Below, one piece after another: positions 13,497 through 28,950 of a stretch of DNA of 64,000 bases. Within the stretch, counting starts at the first letter, position 1, and the number at the start of each line of letters is the position of its first letter. The stretch lies in IMG/VR virus record IMGVR_UViG_3300012953_000017, positions 32,001-96,000 of that record. One strand, 5' to 3'. A program made the translations under genes and the position numbers. Source of the DNA: a virus. Below the pieces are notes generated by a model. The model was not told the DNA's origin and searched no databases. It worked only from the letters and a program-made list of their open reading frames with translations.

Positions 13497-13919
13497 CTAC
13501 GACGTAAATTGGCAAACCTCTATACCACTCTCTTGAAGTATATCTAAGCCTGATGTGTCTCGATATTCGTCATAATACACGACTTTGCTTATTCCTGCAT
13601 TAACAATAGCTTTTGCACACATCTTGCACGGAGACAGTGTTACATAAAGAATCTTCTTTTTTGGGTTGTTGTAGTCAGTCTTAAGCAAAGCATTGATTTC
13701 TGCATGGAGCATCCCAGACTCACCGGGAACTGTGGATTCAACTTCATTAGGTCCGCCGGTGTGATTTCCGTTGTAACCTACTGCTAATACTTGTGTATTA
13801 TCTTCAGTCACAATGACAGCACCTACTTGATGCCTTGGATCATATGATCTTTTAGATATAAGGCATGCCATTTCCATCCACACTTCGTTCCATGTAGGTC
13901 TACTAACAGCTATACTCAT
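13497..13919 (-). CDS. dCMP deaminase
   Basis: RPTW...M, GYNG, HAEINAL and SPCKMC zinc motifs. Confidence 0.9.
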   Translation of the reverse strand: MSIAVSRPTWNEVWMEMACLISKRSYDPRHQVGAVIVTEDNTQVLAVGYNGNHTGGPNEVESTVPGESGMLHAEINALLKTDYNNPKKKILYVTLSPCKMCAKAIVNAGISKVVYYDEYRDTSGLDILQESGIEVCQFTS

Positions 13920-14755
13920 TTGTCAAATATATCCTCTATGTGGGTGGGTGAACAAAGTGTGAACCCGGCTGCCTTTTTGTGGCCGCCGCCGCCGAATTCT
14001 TTAGCAATTTCTGAGACATCAACATTATCATGAAAAGATCTCAGACTTACCTTAGTCTTTAACGATTCATGACAGTAATACCAAATCATCGCAAAGTCGC
14101 AATTAGGAGATAGACTGGATCCAATTTCAGACATCCAATGTGAAGAATTAACAACGAGCACATGCTTTTTCTTGAAACTTCTCGACTTAGCCTTTTGAGA
14201 TACTTTCTTAATGACCGTCTTTGAGTAGGCTAGTATATAAGAGCCGCGTTTAACAGCGTCATCAAAGACAGAGTCGTCTTCAAATTTCTCAAACTCTTCA
14301 AACTTAAACGGCACCATATCAAATGCTGCGCTAAACTCTTTTGAGTAAGGCAATTCCCACTTCCACAAGTCTCTGTCTTCAATGTAGTCTATAAACTTAG
14401 GAGGCTCTTTTCCGGGATGAAAAAAGTCCCACGCCAAACGTGCACCCGAATGGTTCATGTCAAAGTGTGTATTAGAGATGTCATGCAGCTCCACCATCGC
14501 TGATTTATGATGATCTATGATGATCAAGGCCTCAGCATCTTTAATCATTTTTTTAGTTGTTGAGTTGTCAAAGGAAAAGTCTAAAATTGCAACAACCTTT
14601 CCAGTAACGTCCGGCGGTGGAGTGCCATGCGCGCGTGCATAATATTGTGCCTTGTTGCCTAAGCACTTCCACGCCGCATAAGCAGCTCCAAAACCATCAG
14701 TACAGCTTGCGTGATAAATGACAGTGTCAACACTATTCGGATCAATTACATTCAT
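13916..14755 (-). CDS. DHH/DHHA1 phosphoesterase
   Basis: YH..C.DG, LDFS, IDHH, DRDLW, SLRS and GGGGH motifs. Confidence 0.9.
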   Translation of the reverse strand: MNVIDPNSVDTVIYHASCTDGFGAAYAAWKCLGNKAQYYARAHGTPPPDVTGKVVAILDFSFDNSTTKKMIKDAEALIIIDHHKSAMVELHDISNTHFDMNHSGARLAWDFFHPGKEPPKFIDYIEDRDLWKWELPYSKEFSAAFDMVPFKFEEFEKFEDDSVFDDAVKRGSYILAYSKTVIKKVSQKAKSRSFKKKHVLVVNSSHWMSEIGSSLSPNCDFAMIWYYCHESLKTKVSLRSFHDNVDVSEIAKEFGGGGHKKAAGFTLCSPTHIEDIFDK

Positions 14756-14759
14756 AGCA

Positions 14760-15317
14760 TTAGTCTCTCTGGTTCATGTAATTGTGGTGCTCCCAACATC
14801 TAGGTTCATATAGATCTGAGCCTCCCACAGCAATCTCGTCTAGTCCTTCTAGCTTTCTGTGTGTGTAAAAAGCGTCCCTTCCTGTAATAGGGCAGACAGC
14901 AGGGCACACTTCAATCTTGGTTGCCCATGGCATCATATCTCGGACTTCTTCAAAAACAACACCGCTGGCAGATAGCTGAAGCGAAGAAACAACGATCGTT
15001 TTGCCCGATCTAAATAGGCATAACAGAGCTTTCGATACACCTTCTATCATAAAAGCTTCGTCTACAGCAATGACGTCGACGCTATTTTCAGAATTCTGAA
15101 TGTGCTCCAGAACATCCTTACCGCAATTAACTCCAACTGCCTCAAGACTAGCGCCTGAATGTGTTCTGATTTCCACATCCGAATATCTGTCGTCCATTAT
15201 GGGCTTGAAAGCAATAATTTTTTTATTTTGATGCAAATATCTATCGACTACTGCCATCAGGCGTGTTGTCTTTGACCCAAACATTGGCCCAGTAAAAATA
15301 ATAAATTCAGGATCCAT
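14760..15317 (-). CDS. tdk: Thymidine kinase
   Basis: GPMFGSKTT P-loop, VDEA, VGG..LYEPRC. Confidence 0.9.
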   Translation of the reverse strand: MDPEFIIFTGPMFGSKTTRLMAVVDRYLHQNKKIIAFKPIMDDRYSDVEIRTHSGASLEAVGVNCGKDVLEHIQNSENSVDVIAVDEAFMIEGVSKALLCLFRSGKTIVVSSLQLSASGVVFEEVRDMMPWATKIEVCPAVCPITGRDAFYTHRKLEGLDEIAVGGSDLYEPRCWEHHNYMNQRD

Positions 15318-16335
15318 TTATACCTCTCTTGTTAAAATTCCACCAGTGCCAAGTTTGACGCAAACCTTCGTCCAAAGTTGTCTGAGCCTCAAACTTTAAT
15401 GCAAACTTTGCTGCGCCGCACCTGGCAGATGTGTGCATTACATCTCCCGATCGCCACTGTGCGTTCACGACTTCAACATCTACAAATCTTTCTTTAAATT
15501 TGTCTAGCACTTCATTGTTTGAATACGAGATTCCAGATGCTATGTTAAAACACTCGCCTTTAAAGTCAGAAGGGCAATTGGCAGCACATATGTTGGCAGT
15601 TGCTACATCATCAACAAAAATTAAGTCTCTTGTTTGGGTTCCGTCGCCGTCACTTCTTAAGGGGCTTTTAGAGTGCATCTTATTGCACCATGCAGATATT
15701 GCTGTCGAATATGGTGAATCTCCTGTTTGTCTAGGGCCGTACACATTAAAATATCTTAAGCAGACCACGTCTAAATCGTATAGATCAGCGAACATAGATG
15801 CGTACTGTTCACACTGAAGCTTCTGTAGGCCATAAGGCGAATTTGGACTTTTTGGTGCTTGCTCTGAAGTTGGCAAATCTTTTTGATCTCCGTACACAGC
15901 AGAAGAAGAAGAGAATACTATTCTATCTACAAACCCTACTGATGCAGCAAACAGTGCGACAGTCTTAAATAAATTAGTTTCAGTTGTCACTATAGGGTTT
16001 TGCACAGAATACTCTACCCTAGGGTTAGCAGCTAAATGAAATATGATATCATATTTTCCAGACCTGATGCTGTTTAGAATATTATCATGAACAAAGTCAC
16101 CTTGAATTAATAGTGTTCTTTCCTTAGGTCGTGTATTTTCCTTTTGATTCTGATATAAGTGCAGGGTGTCAGCCAAGACTGTTCTTACATCCAAACCTTC
16201 TAAAAATTCAAGATGCCCATTAGACATGTCGTCTATGATGTCTACTTGCCAGCCTTCACAAACTAATCTGTGCACTAAATTGCTTCCAATAAATCCACAC
16301 CCACCTGTCACCAGGGCTTTTTTAAAGCTCATCAT
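15307..16335 (-). CDS. NAD-dependent NDP-sugar epimerase/dehydratase
   Basis: TGGCGFIG, SSSAVYG, YGLQK (YxxxK), LRYFNVYGP, GDG.QTRD. Confidence 0.92.
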   Translation of the reverse strand: MMSFKKALVTGGCGFIGSNLVHRLVCEGWQVDIIDDMSNGHLEFLEGLDVRTVLADTLHLYQNQKENTRPKERTLLIQGDFVHDNILNSIRSGKYDIIFHLAANPRVEYSVQNPIVTTETNLFKTVALFAASVGFVDRIVFSSSSAVYGDQKDLPTSEQAPKSPNSPYGLQKLQCEQYASMFADLYDLDVVCLRYFNVYGPRQTGDSPYSTAISAWCNKMHSKSPLRSDGDGTQTRDLIFVDDVATANICAANCPSDFKGECFNIASGISYSNNEVLDKFKERFVDVEVVNAQWRSGDVMHTSARCGAAKFALKFEAQTTLDEGLRQTWHWWNFNKRGINGS

Positions 16336-16390: not shown

Positions 16391-17299
16391 TTAATCAATG
16401 ATATGGGCAGAGTTCATAGCGCAGTTTAAAATCACTGTATTGTTTAAGTCTAATTCAGATCTTATTGAGGCTGCGATGTGAATTAAAAACTTGAGATCAT
16501 AAGGAAAAGTATTGACAACATCAGAAGACCTACAAACTACGTGTACATTTAGAACATTGTTGCGGAGCATTGTATGAATTAAAGATATGCAAGAATCTTG
16601 AGTGAATACAAACCTTCTTGTTGTCTTTGGATCTTGACTTCTGCCATATTCGTTGTCACCGGAAATCTCTTTTTTTATGTTTTTTAGAACACCGTTTTTT
16701 ATTGTAGCATAGTAATTCTTTTCAGGCGGATGATCCATAATCTTTGGGTCATTAAATAAATCAATCTTGTCAAACTGAAGCGACAAGTTTAATGGTGACA
16801 CTTCTTTTTTACCCGAACACGACACAAAATCAGAGATAATGCCTCCCATGTTTTCAATAGACTGATTTTCTAAATTATAAATTTGATCGACACAGCTTAA
16901 CGCTAGATCGTTTTCTGTTAAGAACCCATCTTCGACAACTATTACATTAGGCAGATGTTTAATTTTTTCTGTCTCTTCTGAAAAAATATCATACAGGCGA
17001 CGAAGTGAAGACAAATTCTGGATTTCGTCCCCTCTAAGATGATATCTGTATCTAATTACTTCCCATTCAGGCAGAAGTACTACTATCCTGTTATTGAGGT
17101 TGCACAAATCCTGCCAAAGACGGCGGCGATGGTCAACCACGTCTCGGCCGTAAAGACGAGAATAGCAAACCATGCTTAAATTAGATCTATCCTGTATGTT
17201 CCATTTGTACCCCGTCATCATATGAATCGAGTTGTACAGTGTCGTTTTTCCAGCCAGATCTGGCCCTTCTATCGTTATTGAGTTCGTTGACAATATCAT
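16391..17299 (-). CDS. Fusion of dNMP (thymidylate-type) kinase and a thymidylate-synthase-like domain with dCMP-type Asp
   Basis: N-terminal IEGPDLAGKTT and DRS; C-terminal TRR, catalytic Cys (DSCIS), RSSDVVNTFPYD, SAHII. Confidence 0.75.
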   Translation of the reverse strand: MILSTNSITIEGPDLAGKTTLYNSIHMMTGYKWNIQDRSNLSMVCYSRLYGRDVVDHRRRLWQDLCNLNNRIVVLLPEWEVIRYRYHLRGDEIQNLSSLRRLYDIFSEETEKIKHLPNVIVVEDGFLTENDLALSCVDQIYNLENQSIENMGGIISDFVSCSGKKEVSPLNLSLQFDKIDLFNDPKIMDHPPEKNYYATIKNGVLKNIKKEISGDNEYGRSQDPKTTRRFVFTQDSCISLIHTMLRNNVLNVHVVCRSSDVVNTFPYDLKFLIHIAASIRSELDLNNTVILNCAMNSAHIID

Positions 17300-17943: not shown

Positions 17944-20900
17944 TCAATCAAAAGCAGTAATTTTTCTAACTTTTGCAGAAGATGTTGACATTCCCCAGTT
18001 TGCATCGTTGTGGACGTCAGCCATCCACAGTGTGTACAGCTCTGGCGGCTCACTAAAAGAACCCCAAACTCGAAGCCATCCTGTATTGTTATCCAAGTCC
18101 ATTACTTTAAACCGATAGAAAGGTTTTCCGTTCTTGGTTTTTTTAGAAATGACATCGGTTATGCAGAACCAACCTACACCCCGGGTGCCCGGGGAGACCT
18201 CAAAAATTGAATCAACATTCTTGGATTCGATTCTTCTTACAAACTCATCTGGAAAAACTAAATTGTTGCTTACACCTGATGTGAGATCGATATAATTAAG
18301 AATCTTTTCCGTACGATTCCAGTCAGGAAGGCTTGCATAGTCTTTCTTTAACATAGAAAGGATTGGCGTCAAAGTTTCGCCATTCTTTTCTGCACGCTTT
18401 ACTTGCGTCTTGGTTTTGCCATACCTCCCTTTGCGCAAAAGGTCATAGTTCTTGCCATCGGTAATGACCGCCAAAAGCTGTTTGTGATTAATCACTTCTC
18501 CAGTTTGCATCTCTGTAAGAGAGCCAAATGCTTCGATTTTGCACAAAGATGTAAAACAAGTCTTATTGAGTTTTGAATGCTTCCAAGAACCGTCTTCATT
18601 CCAAAACAAGTCGTCTAAAGATTTGTAAGGTCTCCGAATCATGATTTCTTCCATGGCTACATTTCCTACACCTTTTACAGCACTTAGAGGAGGAACGAAA
18701 GCACCTACCTCTTCAGAATAGGACCACTCATCGCCTGAATAGTTTACGTCTGAAGCAGCTATCTTGTACCCATATTGCTTGATCTCAGACATTGCCTTTG
18801 CAAGACCTTTTGGGCTGTTATTTTCAGACTGAAGAATTGTTGCTAGCCACTCATGCTCGTAGTGTGTGTGGAGCCACGCTGCGTAATAAGAATCGATGGC
18901 GTAAGACACTGCGTGTGATTTATTAAAGCCATATACAGAGAACGCTTCAATAGTCTTCCAGAGAGCTTCTGTGATACTTCTGTCGATGCCATGGAGGGAG
19001 TGCGCGCCTTCGACAAACTTCTTACGTGCTGCCTCTCGTTCACCGCCTTTTTTGCCCATCGTGTCTAGCGACTTCTTAACCAATGTCTTTCGAAGTTTAT
19101 CAGATTCACCGGGGGAGAAGCCAGCTAGTTCCACAGCAAGTGTCATAAACTGCTCTTGAAAAACAACAAAGTTAAATGTTGGACCTAGAACTTTTTCAAT
19201 CACAGGATGATCATACTTGATCTCTGATGCATTCTTTTTAGCTTTTACATATTTCCTATGGACATTTGCTTTTAAAGGTCCTGGGCGGTAAATAGCTGTT
19301 AATGCAGCCAACTCTGTGATGGTTGTCGGCTTGGCGGCTAGACAGAAGCGCCTTGCTCCGACAGCTGTAAATTGAAATACGCCTGTGAATCGAGCATTGT
19401 GGTAAACATGTTCCCACACATCAGGATCATCTTGTTGATTATATCTACAATTTAAGTGCTTGTCAAAGAATGCCTTAATGTCGGCAAAAGAAGGACTTGG
19501 GCTTCCTTGCTTTTTTAGAATACGCCCAATACAGTTTTCAACATCCTTTAGCAGGGTGAGTCCTAGAAAGTCGAACTTTAGAAAACCATTGTCTTCTAGA
19601 TTCCGGAAGTTCATACCTTCTGTCCATGGAGTTTGCAAGTCGCCACGTACTCCAATGATTGGCATTGTTTTTGCAAGATCATCTGGAGGTGCAATGATTA
19701 CGCCGCCGGCGTGTCTTCCGATGGATCGATTTTCCATGAAAAGTGTTTCAACGTGCCTACCAACTTCAGGATACTTTTCCATGAATTCACGATAACCCTT
19801 AGAGTACTTAAGGCAGTCTTCATGTTTTAGGACAAACACAGACTTTTCTTGATTCTCATCCTTCGCAAACTTCATAACCTCGTCTTGCAAAGGTCCGGTC
19901 ATCTTGTTCACTTCTGCAAAGTCGATACCGTAAAACTTAGCAATGTCCTTAATCAGTGACTTTAGCTTGAGTGTGTTAAAGTTAGAGACAGGAATAACAG
20001 CATCATCACCAAACAACTCCCGGGAAGCATCAATAAGCGCATCTCGATCGCCGGCGTCGGTGTCAATGTCAGGCCATGAAGTTCTATGGCGCCCTAGGAA
20101 CCGCGACCAGAGCAAACCATGCGGAAGTGGATCGATCTGAGTGATTCCTAGTAAATAGTTTACCAGTGAGCCGGCTCCGGAGCCTCTTCCTGGGCCGAAA
20201 AGCGTGCGTTTTTCAGCAAGATGAAATATCTTGTACATGGCCAAGAAGTAAGCTTCATATCCGAGGTACTTAATGTCAGACATTTCTTCTTTCATGCGTT
20301 CGACATATTCAGGCTTTGAAGCCAAGTCCTCTCTAATCATCGCCTCTTTAACAAGGTCCGCCAGCATTTTAAAAGCCGGCTTTTCTGGAGATCCAAACTT
20401 TGGAAGTTTTACACTAGTGTCAATCCACGTGTCTTCGCACTTTTGCCACGCAATATCATGAGTGCGCTCAATAGCATCACGAACTGTTTCCTCGTACCCT
20501 TTGTAGAAATCATATTCCGCATATCCTTGGTGGAACTCTTCCCACATCTGCTGTGCATTTTTAGGGTACAGCTTACATTTTAAGTCTTCTTCTTTTGGAA
20601 GCATGCTTTGGTCAAGCTTAGCACCCATCCATCCGAGCTTTTTATAAAGCTCGCGTGCTTGCCACTTTTGTGGATCGGGAAAGTGTGAGTCAGCTGTGGC
20701 GATAAGAGGAATATTGGTCTTTTTAGAAAGCTCTAAGAGACACCGATTTGTCAGGTGCTGTGCAGGAAGGTCGTTAAACTGCATTTCTAGGAAAAAGTTA
20801 TCCGGCCCCACACAATCGACAAACCGGTCTGTCATATTTTCTAACCTAGACATGATTGGATTGTAGTCGCCGGGACTATTCATCAAGTCAGGATGTAGTT

Positions 20901-21582
20901 CATCAAACATCATTCCGCCGAACTGTCTGTAAATCAGACCGGAAGCTAAGCCACCTACACAAGCTGTAGAAACCACTAAGCCTTCACCATGCTCTTTAAG
21001 CATCTTGTAATCAATTCTAGGAAAGCGATAAAAACCGTGCTTATACGACTTTTTAACAAGTGTAAAGAGGTTGCCTAGACCTACCTGATTTTTGGCGACA
21101 ACGACAAGATGGTAATAACGCTTCCATTCAGGCTTGTTCCCTCTGGACCGTTTGGTCTCTTCTTCGTCTTCAATTACGTGACCGCCCTGCTCGACTTCCT
21201 GGTCGGCGATGATTACGGTTTTTTCAGTCGAGAGCTTTTCTTTTTGCTTTGCACTCTTTGCGTCTTTGATAGCTTGACGGTGCGCTTCGTAAGACACTTT
21301 CCAGTCTTCCAAAGAAGGTACAAAGTAAAACTCAACACCATACAGTTGTCGATATTTCCGGCCAGCTTTCTGCATTTTAACAGTATGTGATCTAGCATGT
21401 GCAAGACCAGATCCGTTTCCATGATCAGTTAAGGCCCAAGCATCCATTCCTTGTGCATCACTTAGCACAAAATCGATATGCTCTTTAGGATATCCTAGGC
21501 CATCAAATGTGCTAAAAGATGAATGTGCATGAAGACCCACAAATCTTGTGGGTGGCCTGATATCTGTGATAATGTTTGACAT
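17944..21582 (-). CDS. dnaE: DNA polymerase III alpha subunit (family C)
   Basis: PHP motifs LHAHS, TDHG, ADSH; GRGSGAGSL; catalytic PDIDTD; GRHAGG; KFDFLGL; YGFNKSH; C-terminal OB fold. GGAGG RBS favours ATG 21582 over 21615. Confidence 0.95.
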   Translation of the reverse strand: MSNIITDIRPPTRFVGLHAHSSFSTFDGLGYPKEHIDFVLSDAQGMDAWALTDHGNGSGLAHARSHTVKMQKAGRKYRQLYGVEFYFVPSLEDWKVSYEAHRQAIKDAKSAKQKEKLSTEKTVIIADQEVEQGGHVIEDEEETKRSRGNKPEWKRYYHLVVVAKNQVGLGNLFTLVKKSYKHGFYRFPRIDYKMLKEHGEGLVVSTACVGGLASGLIYRQFGGMMFDELHPDLMNSPGDYNPIMSRLENMTDRFVDCVGPDNFFLEMQFNDLPAQHLTNRCLLELSKKTNIPLIATADSHFPDPQKWQARELYKKLGWMGAKLDQSMLPKEEDLKCKLYPKNAQQMWEEFHQGYAEYDFYKGYEETVRDAIERTHDIAWQKCEDTWIDTSVKLPKFGSPEKPAFKMLADLVKEAMIREDLASKPEYVERMKEEMSDIKYLGYEAYFLAMYKIFHLAEKRTLFGPGRGSGAGSLVNYLLGITQIDPLPHGLLWSRFLGRHRTSWPDIDTDAGDRDALIDASRELFGDDAVIPVSNFNTLKLKSLIKDIAKFYGIDFAEVNKMTGPLQDEVMKFAKDENQEKSVFVLKHEDCLKYSKGYREFMEKYPEVGRHVETLFMENRSIGRHAGGVIIAPPDDLAKTMPIIGVRGDLQTPWTEGMNFRNLEDNGFLKFDFLGLTLLKDVENCIGRILKKQGSPSPSFADIKAFFDKHLNCRYNQQDDPDVWEHVYHNARFTGVFQFTAVGARRFCLAAKPTTITELAALTAIYRPGPLKANVHRKYVKAKKNASEIKYDHPVIEKVLGPTFNFVVFQEQFMTLAVELAGFSPGESDKLRKTLVKKSLDTMGKKGGEREAARKKFVEGAHSLHGIDRSITEALWKTIEAFSVYGFNKSHAVSYAIDSYYAAWLHTHYEHEWLATILQSENNSPKGLAKAMSEIKQYGYKIAASDVNYSGDEWSYSEEVGAFVPPLSAVKGVGNVAMEEIMIRRPYKSLDDLFWNEDGSWKHSKLNKTCFTSLCKIEAFGSLTEMQTGEVINHKQLLAVITDGKNYDLLRKGRYGKTKTQVKRAEKNGETLTPILSMLKKDYASLPDWNRTEKILNYIDLTSGVSNNLVFPDEFVRRIESKNVDSIFEVSPGTRGVGWFCITDVISKKTKNGKPFYRFKVMDLDNNTGWLRVWGSFSEPPELYTLWMADVHNDANWGMSTSSAKVRKITAFD

Positions 21583-21600
21583 GTAGCCTCCGGAAGACAT

Positions 21601-21634
21601 AAAAAAACCTGGCATAGATATTCTATACCAGGTT
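21601..21634 (-). terminator. Intrinsic terminator hairpin overlapping a promoter
   Basis: AACCTGGTATAG-AATAT-CTATGCCAGGTT followed by a T run; GTGTAA-N17-TAGAAT overlaps it (21648-21620). Confidence 0.6.
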
Positions 21635-21656: not shown

Positions 21657-22628
21657 CTAAAAGAATTGTGTAAGATCGATATTTTTTCTCTCGGCTTCCT
21701 GAAGATGTTTGAGCGGATTATAATCTTTACCTTCATTATTCAGAATGCTTTCCCAAGAAGACATTATTCCTTCTCTGAGAGAATAGCTAGGCTTCCAAGC
21801 TGTAATATTTCTAAACTTATCACAGCTAAGAAGGTGATTCCCTAGATAGTCAGTTTGAGGATGCCACTTAATTTTCTTCTGAATATCTAGGCCGGAGACT
21901 TCGGACATCATGTCGACTATTTTTCCAACCTCAACAGGTGTTTCTGCAGCAATGTTAAAATCGTACCCCCACAACCCTAAGTGACAGGCAAGTGCAACGG
22001 AATCACAAAAATCTTCTACGTGCAAATAATCTTTTGTTTTGGCTGGATCTAAAAACATGTCTATGCTGTCAACGCTGTCATCTAGAGCAGCGAAGAAAGA
22101 TTTCGCTATGAGTGAGTTCATATCTCCAACGCCGCCGTAAGCAAATAAGGGACGCATGATAAGCCATCGGTCGCAATGAGACTTGACAACAAACTCAGAG
22201 GCTAGCTTATGTGCGCCATAGAGAGTATTAGGGCCTAAAGTTGAGGCTTCAACAATTTGTCGATCTTGATACAGACTTGTATCGTATATGACAGTAGTGC
22301 CCATGTAGCACACAGGAATCCCTAGACTATTTGCTGCTCTACAAATTGTGTAAGTTCCTGTCACGTTTGAATTAGTAGCTTCATGTGGATTTAGAGCTAC
22401 AACATCTGTGCCTACCATAGCTGCATTGTGTACAACTAGCCCAATTTCGTTCTCTGAAAGCGCTTTTGACCAAGCTGCCTCAGAGTTTCTCCAGACGCAC
22501 AATTCACCAGAAGGCGTTTTTTCTAGGCTGTCTGAAGTTAGAGTAACTGCCTCTTCGCCTACTTTAGCAAAAGACTTTACTAGATTTCTTGCGATAAAAC
22601 CGTTTTCACCCGTGACAAGAACTTTCAC
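21657..22628 (-). CDS. Second NAD-dependent NDP-sugar epimerase/dehydratase (divergent)
   Basis: VLVTGENGFIA, HNAA, YGAHK (YxxxK), KDYLHVED. Confidence 0.85.
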   Translation of the reverse strand: MKVLVTGENGFIARNLVKSFAKVGEEAVTLTSDSLEKTPSGELCVWRNSEAAWSKALSENEIGLVVHNAAMVGTDVVALNPHEATNSNVTGTYTICRAANSLGIPVCYMGTTVIYDTSLYQDRQIVEASTLGPNTLYGAHKLASEFVVKSHCDRWLIMRPLFAYGGVGDMNSLIAKSFFAALDDSVDSIDMFLDPAKTKDYLHVEDFCDSVALACHLGLWGYDFNIAAETPVEVGKIVDMMSEVSGLDIQKKIKWHPQTDYLGNHLLSCDKFRNITAWKPSYSLREGIMSSWESILNNEGKDYNPLKHLQEAERKNIDLTQFF

Positions 22629-22640: not shown

Positions 22641-23087
22641 TTACTCGATGTCTAGATCGTATGGTTCCTCAATAAGAGTACCCGCTTGTTTACATCTGTC
22701 CAAGTAATCCTCAAGCTGCTCAAAAGATGTGCATACTTTGACACCACTACGTGCTAGCATTAGGTTGAACTTTGCTCCTTCAGGTAGACCTTGGCAGAAA
22801 TAAACAATTGGCACATTATTTGCATGAGCATAACCTGCCTCCCAAATTGTGCCGATATCCTTATCACGTGTGTTGACAATAAGAAAATCTGCTGTTTTAA
22901 TGTGGTGAAGGTTACCTGAGAAGACCTCATCCTGTACGCTCTTCGGTGCGTCAGGTGGACACACAAAAATTCTGCGTGGTGAGGCGAGGTCGATCCAGTC
23001 ACGATCGTCGCAAATCTTCTCTAGACTTGTTAGTTCTTCTGCTTGTACTGGATTAAACCAGCCTGATGCTAAATAAATCTTTTTCAT
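22641..23087 (-). CDS. Nucleoside 2-deoxyribosyltransferase / nucleotide N-glycosidase family protein
   Basis: KIYLASGWF, D.GT.WEAGYA, FNLML motifs. Confidence 0.85.
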   Translation of the reverse strand: MKKIYLASGWFNPVQAEELTSLEKICDDRDWIDLASPRRIFVCPPDAPKSVQDEVFSGNLHHIKTADFLIVNTRDKDIGTIWEAGYAHANNVPIVYFCQGLPEGAKFNLMLARSGVKVCTSFEQLEDYLDRCKQAGTLIEEPYDLDIE

Positions 23088-23099: not shown

Positions 23100-24071
23100 C
23101 TAAAACTTGTTGTTATAGTCATCTTTGAGTTGGGCGAACTCCGACATGAGATCTCGCCACATAGTTGTAAATACTTTCTCTCCAGTGCCGTGAGTACCAT
23201 TAAGTTCTTCGCGGCGGCACTGGTAGATCGTGTCGTCCGGGTGGAAGTCAAAAGTATCATTCTTAGGTTCTGGCCAGTAAAGATTTGTGCCACGACTGAT
23301 CCACTTGTCGCCCTCTTTCACCCTAAAGGTCTTGATATAGTGCATATCAGGTGTATCAAACTTGAACACGTTTGTTAGCTCTGGAATTGCCTTGCATGCC
23401 TCAATTGCCATTCTTGCGGCCAAAATGTTATCAGCTGCTGGCTGAATCTGAACATCTTGGCGTTGACGAACAAATCCAATGAGATCTTTTAGATTAAGGC
23501 GCATGTAATAAAAAGAAGTTAATGCTTTTGGCAAAATCATACGAGCATCCATCATGGAAACAACTTTAGAATCCGTCATGTCAGCATAAAGATCCTTAGC
23601 TTCTAAGACTAGCTTTTTATATCGCTCTAAAAACGCCGGAGAATTTTCTACAGACTCAGGAATTACTGCTGCATCATCGCGTAGATCTCGATCGCCGGTG
23701 CATTGAGCTGCGAAAGAGCCGGCTCGATGGCGAATGATATGGGTCACCTCTTGAAAAGAAAGACCGGAGAGACGAAAGGTAAATCCTAGACACTCCATTG
23801 GAGTTGGTAGTGCTCGGAACTGAAGAACGTCAAGCAAGTTTTTGCTTTTTAAACTGTCTTCTGCAGTGTCCGGATTAATTTCGTCAGGGGTGTCGGCCCA
23901 AGTTGCCTTAACATAATGCCAAGCAACGTTTCTGGCCTGCTCAGTAGAAGGTGCATCTACCAATTCTACCTTTAAAGCTTCTAGGTTATTTTCGAACTTG
24001 GTCGTAGGTTCCTGACCAAACTTGAGATCCATGGGGAGAACGATAGGTTCTAGATCTGTATTTTGTGGCAT
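23100..24071 (-). CDS. Divergent ThyX-fold flavoprotein (second ThyX paralogue)
   Basis: P.E...FTF...GLS...THIIRHR..SF, DARMILP, N.KDL..F..QR; signature altered to RHRAGSFAAQCTGDR. Confidence 0.75.
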   Translation of the reverse strand: MPQNTDLEPIVLPMDLKFGQEPTTKFENNLEALKVELVDAPSTEQARNVAWHYVKATWADTPDEINPDTAEDSLKSKNLLDVLQFRALPTPMECLGFTFRLSGLSFQEVTHIIRHRAGSFAAQCTGDRDLRDDAAVIPESVENSPAFLERYKKLVLEAKDLYADMTDSKVVSMMDARMILPKALTSFYYMRLNLKDLIGFVRQRQDVQIQPAADNILAARMAIEACKAIPELTNVFKFDTPDMHYIKTFRVKEGDKWISRGTNLYWPEPKNDTFDFHPDDTIYQCRREELNGTHGTGEKVFTTMWRDLMSEFAQLKDDYNNKF

Positions 24072-24101: not shown

Positions 24102-24407
24102 CTAAAAATACCACGATTCATCCCAGTGTTCAACACTAGATGTCTTATTTTTGTCATCTTTTTTGCCTATAATTTCATTCCAAAAGATCGACAATGAATT
24201 GGTATATCCTGATCGATTGAGCGCGGTGTCACCCATATGCAACCAAAGATTCATGCACACATCATGGTAAGCTTCATCTATTTTATCTCGATTTGACTCA
24301 AGTTTCCACTCGTCCGGGACACAATCTTTAGGTGCAGTGCCTGAGTGGATTAAATCGATAGCACGGCGAACACTTTTATGAATTTTTAATAAGTTCATAC
24401 AGATCAT
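24102..24407 (-). CDS. Hypothetical protein
   Basis: About 100-aa ORF within the operon. Confidence 0.5.
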   Translation of the reverse strand: MICMNLLKIHKSVRRAIDLIHSGTAPKDCVPDEWKLESNRDKIDEAYHDVCMNLWLHMGDTALNRSGYTNSLSIFWNEIIGKKDDKNKTSSVEHWDESWYF

Positions 24408-25314
24408 CCTTATCAGAAAATAAAGTCACTAAATCAACGTTTTTAAGCTCTGTGTTGTAAGGCAAAGCGGGAGAGAAAACTTGCACACCATGCTTCGCGT
24501 ATTCGGTTGAGTGCTTTGGAGAATCATCAACTGCACAGATCACTTTCCCTTCTTTGTAGAACTCTTGATCGGATAACCACCTAAATTTTTCTCCGGAAAA
24601 GTCAAGTGCGTCAAATTGTAACTCTGACTCTGAAAGCCACATGTAAGTATCGTGATAGCATTTAAGATTGTCAGAAGGGCGTGCTGTTAGTAGATGAATC
24701 CAGTAGCCTTCACTCTTGAGCTTGTTGACGACACGTACCAGCTTTTCATTCTGCTCTAATATTAAAAACCCGCTCTCATTAATGAAATCTCTAAAAACTT
24801 GTTCCGGAGCTAGGCCGGCATTGAGAACGTCAGATACGTTATAGTATTCCGGGCAAGACACCGGAGTATCGACGCCCTTTGTCACTCTTAGCCAGTCAAA
24901 AAAAGACTTTCTAAAATGCGCTAAAACATCATCAATATCAAATATGACTACCGGTTGTCCTTGCCATGCATTCCTTTCTAGAGAATGTCTCATGTGAAGG
25001 AATACATCTTTTGACTCACACGCAGTTTCAAAATCTTCCGGTTTAATATCCCAGAGATTCAAGATAGCCAAAACATATCTGAAAGCATCGACAGACTTAT
25101 ATAAAATCTTGTGGTGGTCTACCTGATTTTTAACTTGTCTGTGGTCTTTAAAATTAATTGCTGAACCTATTCCGGAGGCTTCAGAATGAAGTGCGAGAAC
25201 AAAAGTTTTTGTAATCTCTTCCTTTTCCTTTGTAGACAGTTTTTCACTATTAAAAAACAGACTTGAAAATTCTTTTTGTCTAATTAAAGACTTTGCCAGA
25301 GTTTCAAAATTCAA
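24376..25314 (-). CDS. Fusion of an all-alpha NTP-pyrophosphatase-like domain and a HAD 5'(3')-deoxynucleotidase
   Basis: N-terminal LHSEA...INFKDH...SVDAFRY; C-terminal FDIDDVL, LTARP, VDDSP; GGAG RBS. Confidence 0.7.
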   Translation of the reverse strand: MNFETLAKSLIRQKEFSSLFFNSEKLSTKEKEEITKTFVLALHSEASGIGSAINFKDHRQVKNQVDHHKILYKSVDAFRYVLAILNLWDIKPEDFETACESKDVFLHMRHSLERNAWQGQPVVIFDIDDVLAHFRKSFFDWLRVTKGVDTPVSCPEYYNVSDVLNAGLAPEQVFRDFINESGFLILEQNEKLVRVVNKLKSEGYWIHLLTARPSDNLKCYHDTYMWLSESELQFDALDFSGEKFRWLSDQEFYKEGKVICAVDDSPKHSTEYAKHGVQVFSPALPYNTELKNVDLVTLFSDKDDLYELIKNS

Positions 25315-25535: not shown

Positions 25536-25541
25536 AAGTAA

Positions 25542-25669: not shown

Positions 25670-26311
25670 TTGATAGTGCAAGAAAATCGTCCTGACAACG
25701 AAGAAGTCTTTAACGCTCTGACACATGGGGTTGGCGCGATTTTGGCTTTGGTTGGCGGAGTTTTTTTAATTGGACAATCTTGGGAAATAGGGCCCTGGCA
25801 CTTTGCTGGGGCTTTTTTGTATTCAGTTTCTCTTTTTTCAACTTTTTGTGCGTCAGCTTTTTACCATATCTCAACAGATCCTTTAATAAAGCATAGGTAC
25901 AGAGTTCTGGACCATTCATCCATTTACTTGGCAATAGCAGGGAGTTACTCTCCTATACTTCTAGTAAGTCTAATGGACAATTGGGGACTGCTATATTGTG
26001 TTGTAGTGTGGGTGTTGGCAATTGCAGGAATTCTGTACAAGTCTAAATACACAGGAAAGCATGAGGAATATTCACTCGGAACTTATCTAATGATGGGGTG
26101 GATAGGGCTCTTGATTGTGCATGACATTATAGAAACAATACCTAGCGCAGGATTATATTGGCTTTTAGCAGGCGGCATTATCTACACATCCGGGGCTTAT
26201 TTTTATTACAAAGACGATAAAAGATGGTACCACACCATATGGCATTTTTTTGTACTAGGCGGCAGTATGTGTCACTATATTTTGGTCTCTAAGTACATTA
26301 TACAACCTTAG
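25670..26311 (+). CDS. Hemolysin III / PAQR family membrane protein
   Basis: EE.FNALTHG, SAFYH, LDHSSIYLAIAGSYSP, YLMMGW, HTIWHFFVLGGS..H; seven TM helices. Confidence 0.92.
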   Translation: MIVQENRPDNEEVFNALTHGVGAILALVGGVFLIGQSWEIGPWHFAGAFLYSVSLFSTFCASAFYHISTDPLIKHRYRVLDHSSIYLAIAGSYSPILLVSLMDNWGLLYCVVVWVLAIAGILYKSKYTGKHEEYSLGTYLMMGWIGLLIVHDIIETIPSAGLYWLLAGGIIYTSGAYFYYKDDKRWYHTIWHFFVLGGSMCHYILVSKYIIQP

Positions 26312-27089: not shown

Positions 27090-27097
27090 AACACATA

Positions 27098-27107: not shown

Positions 27108-27509
27108 CTAGTAGCCTGTGTTAAGACGGTCGTGAATAACTTCATCCTTTTTGCGATATGCGTCAAAAAGCTCATCAGCTGTAACGCCAGTAAGAACTAA
27201 TAAGGACAAAAAATAGTTAAAAGCGTCAACAATTTCTTCTAGAAACTCTTCTCTATCAAATTCGTCTACTTCGGTCTTCTTGTGGGGTTTCCAGTTTTTT
27301 AAATGCTGAAGTGCTTCAAACATTTCTTCGACACCTTTCAAAGCAGTATCTCTTAACACTTGCTGAGACTTCTTTTGTGTCAAAGAGACAGGCCATTCTG
27401 GGTATATGTCTGGGTTTGCCTTACTAATTTCTACCATAAATGATTCACGCAGGCGAAACATTTCAGACAGCTTATCTTTATTACTCAGACTCATTTGTCT
27501 CCTCAACAA
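27108..27509 (-). CDS. All-alpha (dimeric-type) dUTPase/dCTPase
   Basis: EEMFEA...NWKPHK...LEEIVDAFNY...K......R motifs. Confidence 0.8.
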   Translation of the reverse strand: MLRRQMSLSNKDKLSEMFRLRESFMVEISKANPDIYPEWPVSLTQKKSQQVLRDTALKGVEEMFEALQHLKNWKPHKKTEVDEFDREEFLEEIVDAFNYFLSLLVLTGVTADELFDAYRKKDEVIHDRLNTGY

Positions 27510-27756
27510 GTTCTTGTACCTCAGAAATCATAGCTTCTAAATTGTTATTAAAAGTCTTTTCATACTCTGATTCTAGGTCAAGAACACCTTCATTACTTAC
27601 AAACTTAATAAGTCGTAAGTTATCAGTGATGTCTGTCCCAGTTAATATTGCAACTTGTAATACTTTGGCAATTTGTGCAATTGCAGAATCTGATAGCTTG
27701 TAGCAGTCAAACATATTATTCTCCTTTTTTTTTATTTCTGAATTTTTGGTACCCAA
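27481..27756 (-). CDS. Hypothetical protein (likely start 27714)
   Basis: AAGGAG RBS before the internal ATG; LQVAILTGTDI core. Confidence 0.55.
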   Translation of the reverse strand: MGTKNSEIKKKENNMFDCYKLSDSAIAQIAKVLQVAILTGTDITDNLRLIKFVSNEGVLDLESEYEKTFNNNLEAMISEVQELVEETNESE

Positions 27757-28538
27757 TGTGTTGTCCTTCCATCAGGTGTCTTTTCTTTAACAACCTCATT
27801 ACCTTCAGGGTCGTTCTTTTGATTATATACCAGGAACCTCTGTGCGTATTGGCCCAATGTTCCGTTAAAATTTTCGTATGTTCTTATTGTAGCACCGCCT
27901 GACCGAAAGCTTTCTCTCAATATTTTTTTAATTGCTGAGTTAAGTGATGACAAATCTTTGTCAGAAAGAGAGTCAACTGTCCTGTGTGGTGATATCTTGG
28001 ACAGCCACAAAGAGTCTGCTTTTACATAGTTTCCGACGCCAGCCACCACTGACTGGTTCATTATAGCTTTAGTGATAGGCCACTTAGACTTCTTTCTAAT
28101 GGCTTGAAAAAACACTTCATCTTTTACATCAGTGGCTAGCATATCCGGCCCTAATGCCTTGAGTTTTTCTAACAAATAATGTTTTCCTCTGACTATTTTA
28201 ACAGTGCCAAAATTTCTTTGATCGTTGAAGTACACCTTACTTTTATCGTCAAAACAAAACTCGACTCTAGAATGCTTTTTTTTATTAGGTGACCAATGGC
28301 CGGTCATTCCTAGCGTGTTCCAAATATAGTGATCATTTTTTAGCATCCAGTATAAAAACTTGCCATGCACACCTACACCGGTGACTTTTGCCGGCAGCGT
28401 ACCTACAGATTCTAGAAGTCCTGGAATTGGCTTTTTCGTATATCTGCCGCTTAGCACATTTATGCTTTTTAAAGTCTTTGCGGAGACAAATTCAGACAAG
28501 TCTAATCCGTATCTTCTTACTTCAGGTCCTTCAGGCAC
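27732..28538 (-). CDS. Fpg/Nei family DNA glycosylase lacking the Cys4 zinc finger
   Basis: MPEGPEV, HGK, LGMTG, D.RNFG, LGPD, H2TH GVGNY; C-terminal GRTTHWVP with no cysteines. Confidence 0.9.
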   Translation of the reverse strand: MPEGPEVRRYGLDLSEFVSAKTLKSINVLSGRYTKKPIPGLLESVGTLPAKVTGVGVHGKFLYWMLKNDHYIWNTLGMTGHWSPNKKKHSRVEFCFDDKSKVYFNDQRNFGTVKIVRGKHYLLEKLKALGPDMLATDVKDEVFFQAIRKKSKWPITKAIMNQSVVAGVGNYVKADSLWLSKISPHRTVDSLSDKDLSSLNSAIKKILRESFRSGGATIRTYENFNGTLGQYAQRFLVYNQKNDPEGNEVVKEKTPDGRTTHWVPKIQK

Positions 28539-28950
28539 AGTTTTCCTCCAGCCAGTCTCGATATTTATTCAAGGCATGATCGTTAGGGCGTACATTTTTC
28601 CAGTCACCTACACAGAAAACTCTCCACGCATCCTCAGCGTACTTTCCGCATCCGTAAAGCTCTTTAGGCGATGACCACTCCTTCTCAACGTATTCTCTAG
28701 AGAATCTCCGAAGGGTCTCTGTACGTCTCTTCCACATTCCTAATGGTTTTATAAGGCTTTGCAAATCGTTAACATCTGCGTCCTTCATAGAATCTGCTGT
28801 GGGATACTTACGAAAAAGCTTCTCGTACACTTTGTCAACTTGTTTTCTAGAAGTTTGATTATGAAGAAGACACGCCACTAGTATTTTCCACTCATTAGGC
28901 CACAAATCTTCTTGCAGCATTCCGACTGGTGATCGAGGTGGTCTCCACAT
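28531..28950 (-). CDS. MBD4-like HhH mismatch (T/U:G) DNA glycosylase
   Basis: W.PPRSP..LQE.L....WK.L...L.NQT, GCGKYAEDA.R.FC, DHAL..Y.DWL match my recollection of the MBD4 glycosylase domain. Confidence 0.85.
   Translation of the reverse strand: MWRPPRSPVGMLQEDLWPNEWKILVACLLHNQTSRKQVDKVYEKLFRKYPTADSMKDADVNDLQSLIKPLGMWKRRTETLRRFSREYVEKEWSSPKELYGCGKYAEDAWRVFCVGDWKNVRPNDHALNKYRDWLEENCA

What the first reader, a model, noticed from the sequence alone, without database searches (positions are those of the whole stretch)
13497..28950. Candidate novel pyrimidine (cytosine) DNA-modification pathway wrapped around DnaE
Seen: one co-oriented block contains a kinase/TS-like fusion with the dCMP-type Asp, a divergent second ThyX, an NDT-family N-glycosidase, two NDP-sugar epimerases, a dUTPase/dCTPase, a pyrophosphatase-HAD fusion, dCMP deaminase, thymidine kinase and two glycosylases, with the replicative polymerase in the middle. 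A canonical ThyX at 34.9 kb can already supply dTMP, so the two extra synthase folds are free for other chemistry. Established: T-even phages combine a TS-fold dCMP modifier, dNMP kinase, dCTPase and sugar transfer to replace C. TS-fold plus NDT-fold enzymes (MilA/MilB) also act together in mildiomycin synthesis. Inference: nucleotide-level synthesis of a modified, possibly sugar-bearing, cytosine. No glycosyltransferase was recognised in this window, so the sugar may be attached by an unconventional enzyme or by a gene elsewhere.
Basis: partly seen in the sequence, partly recalled or inferred. Interest (0 to 1): 0.88.

Follow-up and report, generated by a model that had tools for sequence, protein, structure and literature searches.

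The report
Phage pyrimidine-modification module around DnaE
An uncultured marine giant phage keeps beside its DNA polymerase gene a conserved set of unusual nucleotide enzymes that probably make an altered cytosine or uracil building block for its DNA, though no chemistry has been measured and the proposed sugar step is not supported.

Summary
This scan had already flagged the same kinase/mini-TS fusion and rewired ThyX on other DNA; my tests agree with those notes.

The block is not one pathway.
- **Conserved core:** a YorR-like kinase fused to a 152-aa minimal thymidylate-synthase (TS) fold with catalytic Cys and dCMP-type Asp (16391-17299); a rewired ThyX paralogue (23100-24071); an NDT-family gene (22641-23087); a MazG-type pyrophosphatase (27108-27509); and DnaE.
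- **Ordinary genes:** dCMP deaminase, thymidine kinase, canonical ThyX and the two glycosylases.
- **Accessory genes:** both SDR "epimerases", the MazG-like/HAD fusion and DHH are absent from a complete 239.5-kb relative. That relative also lacks GT1, GT2 and NDP-sugar pyrophosphorylase matches. FA hydroxylase (1 of 80 related loci) and HlyIII (7 of 80) are sporadic.

New here: cultured Geobacillus phage GR1 and 8 viral loci carry the split form. In it a stand-alone mini-TS gene starts within 19 nt of the ThyX-paralogue stop codon, next to DnaE. Elsewhere the kinase is fused to NDT instead. Fusion and adjacency therefore link kinase, mini-TS, ThyX paralogue and NDT.

The closest solved structures include the flavin-dependent dCMP 5-hydroxylases. 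This window has Asp, not their diagnostic Asn. Best reading: nucleotide-level C5 modification of a pyrimidine, probably dCMP (about 0.5). The sugar part is unsupported.

The parts
16391..17299 (-). Kinase/mini-TS fusion (302 aa). Residues 1-150 form a YorR-like P-loop nucleoside/nucleotide kinase. Residues 151-302 form a minimal thymidylate-synthase fold with Arg-Arg, catalytic Cys237, Arg-Ser, Asp268 (ThyA Asn177 position) and His299.
   Evidence: 310 homologues; profile hits YorR and T4 dCMP hydroxymethylase; Z 13.8 to YorR 3kb2; Z 8.9-11.1 to all 7 TS-family representatives, next unrelated 6.1
23100..24071 (-). Rewired ThyX paralogue (323 aa). RHR, and the Arg residues aligned to T. maritima R147 and R174, are kept. 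The signature Ser is Cys. The His-rich motif is lost. It has conserved N- and C-terminal extensions.
   Evidence: 1010 homologues; below TIGR02170 cut-off
22641..23087 (-). NDT-family protein (148 aa), catalytic Glu motif GTIWEAG, directly downstream of the ThyX paralogue
   Evidence: 6evs E 4e-8; 76 of 77 loci
27108..27509 (-). MazG-type all-alpha NTP pyrophosphatase with conserved EExFE and EExxD acid clusters. Candidate dNTP-excluding or dNMP-supplying enzyme.
   Evidence: phrog_12184 E 1.4e-19; 74 of 80
27481..27756 (-). Small conserved protein of unknown function, upstream of MazG
   Evidence: 65 of 80; only hypothetical viral clusters
24376..25314 (-). Fusion of a degenerate MazG-like N-domain with a HAD phosphatase carrying DxDDV, T-A-R-P and DD motifs. 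It resembles 5'-nucleotidases (resemblance recalled). Frequent but not universal.
   Evidence: 70 of 80; absent from G005
17944..21615 (-). DnaE-type replicative polymerase, always next to the kinase/mini-TS gene
   Evidence: (79 of 79)
13497..13919 (-). dCMP deaminase (ordinary dUMP supply)
   Evidence: 63 of 65
14760..15317 (-). Thymidine kinase
   Evidence: 58 of 65
13916..14755 (-). DHH/DHHA1 phosphoesterase (accessory)
   Evidence: 45 of 65
15307..16335 (-). Extended SDR, GalE-like (accessory; no proven link to DNA)
   Evidence: 50 of 65
21657..22628 (-). Extended SDR, RmlD/dTDP-glucose-dehydratase-like (accessory)
   Evidence: (55 of 80)
27732..28538 (-). Fpg/Nei-family DNA glycosylase (N-terminus PEGPEV)
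   Evidence: (49 of 80)
28531..28950 (-). MBD4-type HhH-GPD mismatch glycosylase
   Evidence: (20 of 80)
34913..35626 (-). Canonical ThyX (ordinary dTMP synthesis)

Best explanation
The finding covers a replication and nucleotide-supply region that contains one unusual conserved module. The module's four signature proteins work together: a YorR-like kinase, a minimal TS-fold domain, a rewired ThyX paralogue and an NDT-family protein. A MazG-type pyrophosphatase supports them.

Proposed mechanism (inferred, not shown):
1. MazG, and where present the MazG-like/HAD nucleotidase, returns a canonical pyrimidine dNTP to the monophosphate or nucleoside level.
2. In the mini-TS domain, Cys237 attacks C6 of dCMP. 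Asp268 selects and protonates cytosine. C5 is thereby activated for substitution.
3. The substituent is a hydroxyl, by analogy with the flavin/O2-dependent 5-hydroxy-dCMP synthases, or a one-carbon group.
4. The flavoprotein ThyX paralogue either supplies the flavin-borne reactive species or modifies a second (uracil) nucleotide.
5. The fused kinase phosphorylates the product.
6. The phage DnaE incorporates it.
7. NDT either removes competing nucleotides or nucleosides, or swaps bases on salvaged deoxyribose.

dCMP deaminase, TK, canonical ThyX, DHH, Nei and the MBD4-like glycosylase are ordinary supply and repair genes. The two SDRs, FA hydroxylase and HlyIII are accessory genes. They are not a demonstrated sugar arm.
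For: Fold and residues:
- The C-domain model (pLDDT 95.1) aligns 134-137 of 152 residues to all seven TS-family representatives at Z 8.9-11.1. The top hit is the flavin-dependent dCMP monooxygenase 9iqc. The next unrelated chain scores 6.1.
- Foldseek ranks 9iqu and 9iqc first.
- Arg228, Arg229, Cys237, Arg257, Ser258 and His299 are invariant in 35 of 35 sequences.
- Asp occupies the Asn177 position in 114 of 116.

Kinase:
- Its best match is YorR (Z 13.8; E 2.3e-7).
- YorR is also the Foldseek match reported for the 'nucleotide kinase' encoded two genes from the 5hodCMP synthase in phage DLP3 (PMC13326640, Table 1; section 25 read).

Linkage:
- The fusion follows DnaE in 21 of 22 loci with enough flank, and DnaE is present in 79 of 79 kinase-centred loci.
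- NDT follows the ThyX paralogue in 76 of 77 loci.
- Both ThyX types occur in 5 of 5 large relatives, and none has ThyA.
- In Geobacillus phage GR1 the ThyX-paralogue homologue (46% identity) is followed directly by a 151-aa stand-alone mini-TS (hhalign 93.8%, E 1.8e-7) and then DnaE. A separate kinase (97%, E 1.1e-10), an NDT gene and a nitroreductase lie nearby.
- Eight viral loci have a stand-alone mini-TS ORF starting 19 to 0 nt before the ThyX-paralogue stop.
- In locus L205 the kinase, ThyX paralogue and mini-TS are contiguous.
- In L190 and L220 the kinase is fused to NDT instead.
- Of five distant loci (four MAG contigs plus phage GR1), the four MAG loci have NDT directly upstream of the ThyX paralogue. 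In GR1 NDT lies about 4.4 kb upstream.

Other:
- The MazG acid clusters are conserved.
- The MBD4-type glycosylase removes T or 5hmU opposite G (recalled). That would suit a 5-substituted cytosine genome.
Against: - No chemistry or DNA composition was measured.
- Pfam Thymidylat_synt does not recognise the window's protein, and only 2 of 35 family members gave weak hits (best E 0.027).
- The domain is 152 aa against 217-264 aa for active TS-family enzymes. Cofactor-binding parts may be missing.
- The Asp169-to-Asn change that PMC13326640 proposes as diagnostic of 5-hydroxy-dCMP synthases is not met in this window (Asp260). The family is mixed: D 69, N 35, E 12 of 116.
- Structural Z-scores to the hydroxylase and to ordinary ThyA are tied (11.1 against 10.8).
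- The ThyX paralogue keeps the Arg residues aligned to those that bind dUMP in T. maritima ThyX.
- It is the only thymidylate synthase of phage GR1. It may therefore simply make dTMP.
- A Nei-family glycosylase is conserved in the module. That family excises 5-hydroxycytosine (recalled), which argues against unprotected 5hoC in DNA.
- SPbeta carries YorR and a DnaE-type polymerase without known base replacement (recalled).
- No glycosyltransferase, C5-methyltransferase or NDP-sugar pyrophosphorylase is found in the window's record or in complete relative G005.
Confidence: 0.5

Rival explanations
1. Ordinary dNTP-supply kit. The ThyX paralogue is just the phage-lineage form of flavin-dependent thymidylate synthase. 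The fusion is a dTMP/dNMP (or deoxynucleoside) kinase whose TS-derived domain only binds nucleotide or mediates assembly. NDT, HAD, MazG, TK and dCMP deaminase re-balance salvaged deoxyribose towards an A+T-rich genome. Virion DNA is canonical.
For: - GR1 has only the paralogue type of ThyX and no ThyA.
- RHR and the Arg residues aligned to T. maritima R147 and R174 are retained.
- The best PDB hit is the T. maritima Ser88Cys variant (3g4c). Such variants retain activity (recalled).
- The nearest solved NDT relative is a true transferase.
- The genomes are 29-42% G+C.
- Neighbours are standard salvage genes.
Against: - Both ThyX types are kept in 5 of 5 large relatives across 60-86% divergence.
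- The paralogue fails the ThyX equivalog cut-off (41.9 against 87.9 bits).
- It has strongly conserved extra N- and C-terminal segments.
- The mini-TS keeps every catalytic-type residue invariant, with Asp rather than Asn. That is unexpected for a mere binding domain and wrong for dUMP/dTMP.
Confidence: 0.28
2. The whole block, including both SDR enzymes and the HAD fusion, makes a sugar-bearing cytosine. The sugar is attached by an unrecognised transferase.
For: - SDR1 is in 50 of 65 and SDR2 in 36 of 67 kinase-centred loci.
- SDR2 sits directly next to the ThyX paralogue in several loci.
- Known 5hoC clusters combine a TS homologue, a YorR-like kinase, a HAD phosphatase, a dCTPase and glycosyltransferases (PMC13326640, sections 25 and 27).
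- GR1 has a gene annotated as glycosyltransferase in its cluster.
- One ThyX-paralogue-type protein (P0261) carries an N-terminal region with a weak GT2 hit (E 1.6e-4, below cut-off).
Against: - Complete relative G005 lacks SDR1, SDR2 and the HAD fusion.
- G005 has no GT1, GT2 or NTP_transferase match. The window's record has none either.
- GT clusters in G001 and G004 lie about 100 kb from the module, next to further SDR genes, like surface-polysaccharide genes.
- The GR1 'glycosyltransferase' has no Pfam hit at E 0.001.
Confidence: 0.1
3. The module makes a free modified base or nucleoside rather than a DNA precursor, following MilA/MilB or BcmA/BcmB logic (C5-modifying enzyme plus NDT-fold N-glycosidase). 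Alternatively, NDT loads an unusual base onto deoxyribose, and the kinase then phosphorylates it.
For: - NDT is adjacent to the ThyX paralogue in 76 of 77 loci and in the four MAG loci.
- The kinase is fused to NDT in L190 and L220.
- Structural neighbours of the kinase include deoxynucleoside kinases (Z 12.0-12.7).
- The MilA/MilB precedent is recalled. MilA is cited in PMC13326640 section 24.
Against: - The module is tightly linked to DnaE (79 of 79) and to dNTP genes. That points to a DNA precursor.
- No exporter or further tailoring genes were recognised.
Confidence: 0.1

Closest known systems
Flavin/O2-dependent 5-hydroxy-dCMP synthases (dCMP 5-hydroxylases) of phages: HY126 AfhB (PDB 9iqu, 9iqc), RB69 gp48, DLP3 gp80, with their cluster partners
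   Same: - TS fold with catalytic Cys and Asp at the Asn177 position.
- Short chains.
- Top Foldseek and VIA matches of the mini-TS domain.
- The known clusters also hold a YorR-like kinase, a HAD phosphatase and an all-alpha dCTPase (PMC13326640).
- A flavoprotein (the ThyX paralogue) is genetically linked here.
   Different: - The domain here has 152 aa and is fused to the kinase.
- No sequence-level match to 9iqu or 9iqc was found.
- This window has Asp, not the diagnostic Asn, at the 169 position. Asn occurs in 35 of 116 relatives and in the six GR1-like stand-alone forms whose sequences were printed.
- No glycosyltransferase or arabinose genes are present.
- The link to a ThyX paralogue and to NDT is not described for those systems.
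Phage T4 pre-replicative hydroxymethylcytosine pathway (gp56 dCTPase, gp42 dCMP hydroxymethylase, gp1 dNMP kinase, glucosyltransferases)
   Same: - Same logic of pyrophosphatase plus TS-fold dCMP enzyme plus kinase.
- The family profile hits gp42 residues 147-217 (E 0.029).
- Asp169 and Asp179 equivalents are both present in this window.
   Different: - The fold is minimal (152 aa against 246 aa).
- The kinase is YorR-like, not gp1-like.
- No DNA glucosyltransferase is present.
- The polymerase is DnaE-type.
- There are two extra partners, the ThyX paralogue and NDT.
Flavin-dependent thymidylate synthase ThyX (T. maritima TM0449; TIGR02170)
   Same: - Thy1 domain at 68 bits.
- The RHR motif and the Arg residues aligned to R147 and R174 are kept.
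   Different: - Scores 41.9 bits against the 87.9-bit equivalog cut-off.
- Ser88 is Cys.
- The R90-Y91 segment is rewired (CTGDR).
- The His-rich motif is lost.
- It has conserved extensions of about 40 aa (N-terminal) and 90 aa (C-terminal).
- It co-exists with a canonical ThyX.
MilA/MilB and BcmA/BcmB pairs (TS-fold CMP hydroxymethylase plus NDT-fold N-glycosidase) of nucleoside-antibiotic pathways (recalled)
   Same: A C5-pyrimidine-modifying enzyme is genetically paired with an NDT-fold protein. MilA is among the structural matches of the mini-TS (Z 8.9).
   Different: - Here NDT's partner is a ThyX-fold enzyme.
- The context is phage replication.
- The NDT gene is closest to a true deoxyribosyltransferase (6evs).
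Bacillus prophage SPbeta YorR (PDB 2axp, 3kb2)
   Same: Best sequence and structure match of the kinase domain.
   Different: YorR stands alone and its substrate is not known to me. Here the domain is fused to mini-TS or, in other lineages, to NDT.

Membership tests
Thymidylate synthase / dCMP hydroxymethylase superfamily (C-domain of 16391-17299) | TS alpha/beta fold | tested here: met
   Z 8.9-11.1, 134-137 of 152 residues aligned, rmsd 2.8-3.2, to all 7 TS-family representatives. The next unrelated chain has Z 6.1.
Thymidylate synthase / dCMP hydroxymethylase superfamily (C-domain of 16391-17299) | Catalytic Cys plus Arg-Arg, Arg-Ser and His motifs | tested here: met
   R228, R229, C237, R257, S258 and H299 are invariant in 35 of 35. 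The Cys aligns with the T4 gp42 active-site stretch.
Thymidylate synthase / dCMP hydroxymethylase superfamily (C-domain of 16391-17299) | Recognition by Pfam PF00303 | tested here: not met
   No PF00303 hit for the window's protein at E 1. Two of 35 relatives hit weakly, best E 0.027. No PF00303 match in the whole record.
Thymidylate synthase / dCMP hydroxymethylase superfamily (C-domain of 16391-17299) | Full-length cofactor (folate) binding elements | tested here: inconclusive
   The domain is 152 aa. Aligned chain ranges span about 210 residues of the targets, so about 70 residues are deleted. Which elements are lost could not be mapped without coordinates.
Flavin-dependent 5-hydroxy-dCMP synthase | Asp at the ThyA Asn177 position (dCMP selection) | tested here: met
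   Asp268. D in 114 of 116 parsed homologues.
Flavin-dependent 5-hydroxy-dCMP synthase | Asn at the ThyA Asp169 position (diagnostic proposed in PMC13326640, section 28) | tested here: not met
   The window has Asp260 (RSSD). The family has D 69, N 35, E 12 of 116. Asn is present in the GR1-like stand-alone forms printed (RS[SA]N) and in L190 (RSCN).
Flavin-dependent 5-hydroxy-dCMP synthase | Flavin binding and O2-dependent hydroxylation | not testable with these tools
   Needs protein and assay.
ThyX / FDTS (23100-24071) | Thy1 domain and RHR motif | tested here: met
   PF02511 at 68 bits against a 24.8 cut-off. R114-H115-R116 are aligned to the T. maritima RHR.
ThyX / FDTS (23100-24071) | Equivalog-level score (TIGR02170) | tested here: not met
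   41.9 bits against a cut-off of 87.9. The canonical copy at 34913-35626 scores 165.8.
ThyX / FDTS (23100-24071) | Signature RHRx7SxRY and the His-containing motif | tested here: not met
   It reads RHRAGSFAAQCTGDR. LPTPMEC replaces the His-rich motif.
Nucleoside 2-deoxyribosyltransferase family (22641-23087) | PF05014 domain with catalytic Glu | tested here: met
   47.4 bits against a 28.8 cut-off. GTIWEAG aligns with GTAWELG of 6evs.
Nucleoside 2-deoxyribosyltransferase family (22641-23087) | Transferase versus nucleotide N-glycosidase activity | not testable with these tools
   Sequence does not decide this.
T-even-type cytosine-replacement pathway | DNA glycosyltransferase | tested here: not met
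   No PF00534 or PF00535 match in the window's 119.9-kb record or in complete relative G005. Other GT families were not searched.
T-even-type cytosine-replacement pathway | Non-canonical cytosine in virion DNA | not testable with these tools
   Only assembled contigs of public runs are held.

The most novel reading that the evidence does not exclude
The rewired ThyX paralogue and the minimal TS domain form a previously unknown two-part enzyme system. A ThyX-derived flavin module and a TS-derived, Cys-dependent dCMP-activating module together install a C5 substituent. An NDT-family partner and a dedicated kinase complete the route to a new DNA base. That base would be used by hundreds of abundant marine jumbo phages and by a culturable Geobacillus phage.
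Probability: 0.2. Interest if true: 0.9.

Novelty: new variant of a known kind. Interest (0 to 1): 0.74.

Why it matters
If the module makes a modified pyrimidine, a large and widespread group of ocean giant phages would carry non-canonical DNA. Near-identical sequence occurs in marine metagenomes from 2014 to 2024.

Consequences if true:
- It would affect how these phages evade restriction and CRISPR.
- It would affect how well they are recovered by sequencing.
- It would affect what nucleotide pools they draw on.
- It would add a minimal TS fold and a ThyX-derived enzyme to the toolkit of base-modifying chemistry.

The split form in cultured Geobacillus phage GR1 makes the question testable at the bench with an existing phage-host pair.

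Tried and rejected
- **Near-identity search of the block in cultured phages:** no match. tblastn of the fusion in cultured phages: no match.
- **First single-protein viral scan with the fusion:** nothing found. The alignment-based scan worked.
- **Complex prediction, ThyX paralogue plus mini-TS domain:** no verdict (score 0.00, controls not run). It is neither for nor against binding.
- **Public runs:** all 24 rows are assembled contigs without library details. A look for systematic base-calling errors in native long reads was therefore impossible, and read laying was not used.
- **Palindrome statistics on three genomes:**
  - No C-containing 4-mer palindrome is below O/E 0.76.
  - CCGG is over-represented (1.44, 1.44, 1.73).
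  - The most depleted words are A/T-only (TAATTA; TTAA 0.60 in G001).
  - This is compatible with protected cytosines but far too weak to count.
- **Search for short stand-alone forms by shared words:** only 6 fragments at contig ends. The real stand-alone forms were found by profile instead.
- **PDB sequence search:** nothing for the HAD fusion and only noise for MazG.
- **Atlas search of the small conserved protein:** only hypothetical viral clusters.
- **Literature:**
  - Searches for ThyX+phage+hypermodified, dCMP hydroxylase, AfhB/HY126, Geobacillus phage GR1, ThyX+deoxyribosyltransferase+phage and 5hodCMP terms found no description of the kinase/mini-TS fusion or of a ThyX-paralogue/NDT module. 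This covers the held library only.
  - Of PMC13326640 I read the outline, sections 24, 25, 27 and 28, and passages. Its supplementary figures were not seen and may bear on kinase and flavin claims.
  - He et al. 2026 (doi 10.1038/s41589-026-02150-z) was seen only as a reference entry and as described in that paper.
- **An error of mine:** an early label placed the canonical ThyX at 34157-34873. That ORF is an HD-domain protein. The canonical ThyX is 34913-35626.
- **Rows dropped:**
  - In one search, 4 of 120 homologues did not fit the motif pattern. One is truncated. By eye, three have D or E at the 169 position and D at the 177 position.
  - In one search, partial and duplicate sequences were removed before alignment. 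The numbers kept were 68, 66, 63, 51 and 30.
- **Non-independence:** the three IMG/VR locus sets share many contigs and are not independent samples.

Full report
**Setting.** The window is bases 32001-96000 of a 119,919-base IMG/VR viral record that CheckV rates 42% complete. Relatives reach 284 kb, and two of them are rated complete. Near-identical sequence occurs in marine metagenome assemblies dated 2014 to 2024. No cultured phage matches at the DNA level. The DnaE is at most 29% identical to those of cultured phages.

**Observation.**
- dCMP deaminase, thymidine kinase, two extended SDRs, DnaE and an NDT-family protein are all present.
- A ThyX-domain protein passes Pfam but fails the ThyX equivalog cut-off (41.9 against 87.9 bits).
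- A MazG-type pyrophosphatase is present.
- There is a fusion of a MazG-like N-domain (BLASTP E 8e-7 to the MazG gene) with a HAD phosphatase.
- An Fpg/Nei glycosylase is present, and an HhH-GPD glycosylase that is a close MBD4 homologue (E 2.6e-43).
- A canonical ThyX lies at 34913-35626 (165.8 bits).
HlyIII lies on the opposite strand.

**The fusion protein.** The 302-aa ORF at 16391-17299 has no Pfam hit, but it has 310 homologues of the same length.
- In 35 aligned members, the P-loop and the C-terminal motifs Arg-Arg, Cys-Ile-Ser, Arg-Ser and Ser-Ala-His are invariant or nearly so.
- The family profile finds SPbeta YorR (E 2.3e-7) and residues 147-217 of T4 dCMP hydroxymethylase (E 0.029).
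- The AlphaFold model is confident (pLDDT 94.7).
- The N-domain matches YorR best (Z 13.8), followed by deoxynucleoside and thymidylate kinases.
- The C-domain was modelled alone (pLDDT 95.1). It aligns 134-137 of its 152 residues to all seven TS-family representatives in a library of 48,161 chains, at Z 8.9-11.1. The next unrelated chain scores 6.1.
- The best-ranked structures are the recently solved flavin-dependent dCMP hydroxylases 9iqu and 9iqc. Ordinary ThyA is within one Z unit of them.

**What is known.** PMC13326640 (sections 24, 25, 27 and 28 read) shows the following.
- TS homologues of RB69, DLP3 and others make 5-hydroxy-dCMP with a loosely bound flavin and O2.
- These enzymes carry Asp at the Asn177 position and Asn at the Asp169 position.
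- Their clusters also encode a YorR-like nucleotide kinase, a HAD phosphatase, an all-alpha dCTPase and glycosyltransferases.

In the present family, Asp at the 177 position is nearly universal (114 of 116). The 169 position is mixed: D 69, N 35, E 12. This window has Asp. So the window meets the cytosine-selecting feature but not the proposed hydroxylase diagnostic.

**Conservation.**
- Eighty loci were found with the ThyX paralogue as query. Within 10 kb, the counts were NDT 77, MazG 74, the HAD fusion 70, the small upstream protein 65, SDR2 55, DnaE 51 and Fpg 49, always in the same order.
- With flank limits taken into account, NDT follows the paralogue in 76 of 77 loci, and the fusion follows DnaE in 21 of 22.
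- Seventy-nine loci were found with the fusion as query. All have DnaE. Of the 65 with 5 kb downstream, 63 have dCMP deaminase, 58 TK, 50 SDR1 and 45 DHH.
- These sets share contigs and are not independent.
- All five large relatives have both ThyX types and no ThyA.

**Core and accessory.** The complete 239.5-kb relative G005 (29% G+C) keeps dCMP deaminase, TK, the fusion, DnaE, Fpg, NDT, the ThyX paralogue, MazG, the small protein and the canonical ThyX.
- It has no SDR1, SDR2, HAD fusion, DHH or HhH gene by tblastn.
- It has no GT1, GT2, NTP_transferase or C5-methyltransferase match. The window's own record has none either.
- Glycosyltransferase clusters in G001 and G004 lie about 100 kb away, beside further SDR genes.

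**New linkage evidence.** The ThyX-paralogue type is a wide family: 520 clusters at E 0.001 and 45 at E 1e-30.
- Its only strong match among cultured phages is Geobacillus phage GR1, at 46% identity.
- The GR1 gene order is DHH, NDT, thioredoxin, HD, a gene annotated glycosyltransferase, a hypothetical gene, a P-loop protein, RNase H, nitroreductase, the ThyX paralogue, a 151-aa hypothetical protein, another hypothetical gene, then DnaE.
- The 151-aa protein is a stand-alone mini-TS (hhalign 93.8%, E 1.8e-7).
- The P-loop protein matches the kinase domain (97%, E 1.1e-10).
- GR1 has no other ThyX and no ThyA.
- A further viral scan gave 8 loci with a stand-alone mini-TS ORF starting 19 to 0 nt before the paralogue's stop codon. 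It also gave 18 loci with the fused form after DnaE. Only 1 locus had enough flank and no mini-TS.
- In locus L205 the kinase, paralogue and mini-TS are contiguous.
- The GR1-like stand-alone forms printed carry RS[SA]N and Asp, which is the hydroxylase signature.
- Four MAG contigs (labelled Clostridia, Bacillales, Methanobrevibacter and Methanobacteriota) have NDT directly upstream of the paralogue.
- In L190 and L220 the kinase domain is fused to NDT rather than to mini-TS.
- Fusion and adjacency thus tie the kinase, mini-TS, ThyX paralogue and NDT into one functional unit next to DnaE.

**Interpretation.** The evidence best fits a nucleotide-level pathway that modifies C5 of a pyrimidine, most likely dCMP, and phosphorylates the product for the phage polymerase.
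- Hydroxylation is the leading candidate for lineages with Asn at the 169 position.
- For this window (Asp) a one-carbon substituent is equally open.
- The role of the ThyX paralogue is unresolved. It retains the Arg residues aligned to the dUMP-binding ones of T. maritima ThyX.
- It may therefore still act on a uracil nucleotide, or it may serve as the flavin partner of the mini-TS.

Several points count against the modification reading.
- GR1 relies on this ThyX type alone.
- The mini-TS is much shorter than any proven enzyme of the family.
- A Nei-type glycosylase sits in the module.
- There is a complete lack of chemical data.

I put the modification reading at about 0.5, an ordinary supply kit at about 0.28, and the sugar-bearing version and a free-base/nucleoside product at about 0.1 each.

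**Novelty.** The held literature shows no description of this fusion or of the ThyX-paralogue/NDT/mini-TS unit. Earlier notes of this scan reached the same reading of the fusion and of the ThyX paralogue on other genomes. They are leads, and my own calls reproduced them independently.

Noticed in passing
window 28531-28950 (-): A 139-aa phage protein aligns over 136 residues with the glycosylase domain of mammalian MBD4 (E 2.6e-43). It is a strikingly close homologue of a eukaryotic T:G/U:G mismatch glycosylase in a marine phage. It is present in 20 of 80 related loci.
   Followed up: partly
window 34157-34873 (-): HD-domain protein similar to the hydrolase domain of RelA/SpoT (p)ppGpp enzymes (PDB hits E 4e-13; Pfam HD_4). 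It lies next to the canonical ThyX and is a possible alarmone hydrolase.
   Followed up: partly
window 17187-17840 (-): Fatty-acid-hydroxylase-family membrane protein between DnaE and the kinase/mini-TS gene. Its 3' end overlaps the fusion's start by 113 nt, and gene callers then shorten the fusion to 260 aa. It is found in only 1 of 80 related loci.
   Followed up: partly
window 25670-26311 (+): Haemolysin-III-family membrane protein, the only plus-strand gene in the block. It is present in 7 of 80 related loci.
   Followed up: no
window 26298-27089 (-): A 263-aa protein without family hits that contains an HExxH-like motif (AHEMQH). It is present in 3 of 80 related loci.
   Followed up: no
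G005 (L086): 46235-47197 and 48568-51258: DnaE of the complete relative matches in two pieces separated by about 1.4 kb. Several other loci also have stretched DnaE regions. This suggests intein or homing-endonuclease insertions.
   Followed up: no
protein P0261 (551 aa): A ThyX-paralogue-type domain is preceded by about 265 residues with a weak Glycos_transf_2 hit (E 1.6e-4, below cut-off).
   Followed up: partly
G000, G001, G005 whole records: CCGG is over-represented in all three genomes (O/E 1.44, 1.44, 1.73). TTAA is depleted to 0.60 in G001 only. TAATTA is the most depleted 6-mer palindrome in G001 and G005 and the second most in G000.
   Followed up: partly
L190:8467-9486 and L220:6504-7445: In these distant loci the P-loop kinase domain is fused to the NDT domain (AAA_18 plus Nuc_deoxyrib_tr). 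It is not fused to the mini-TS.
   Followed up: partly
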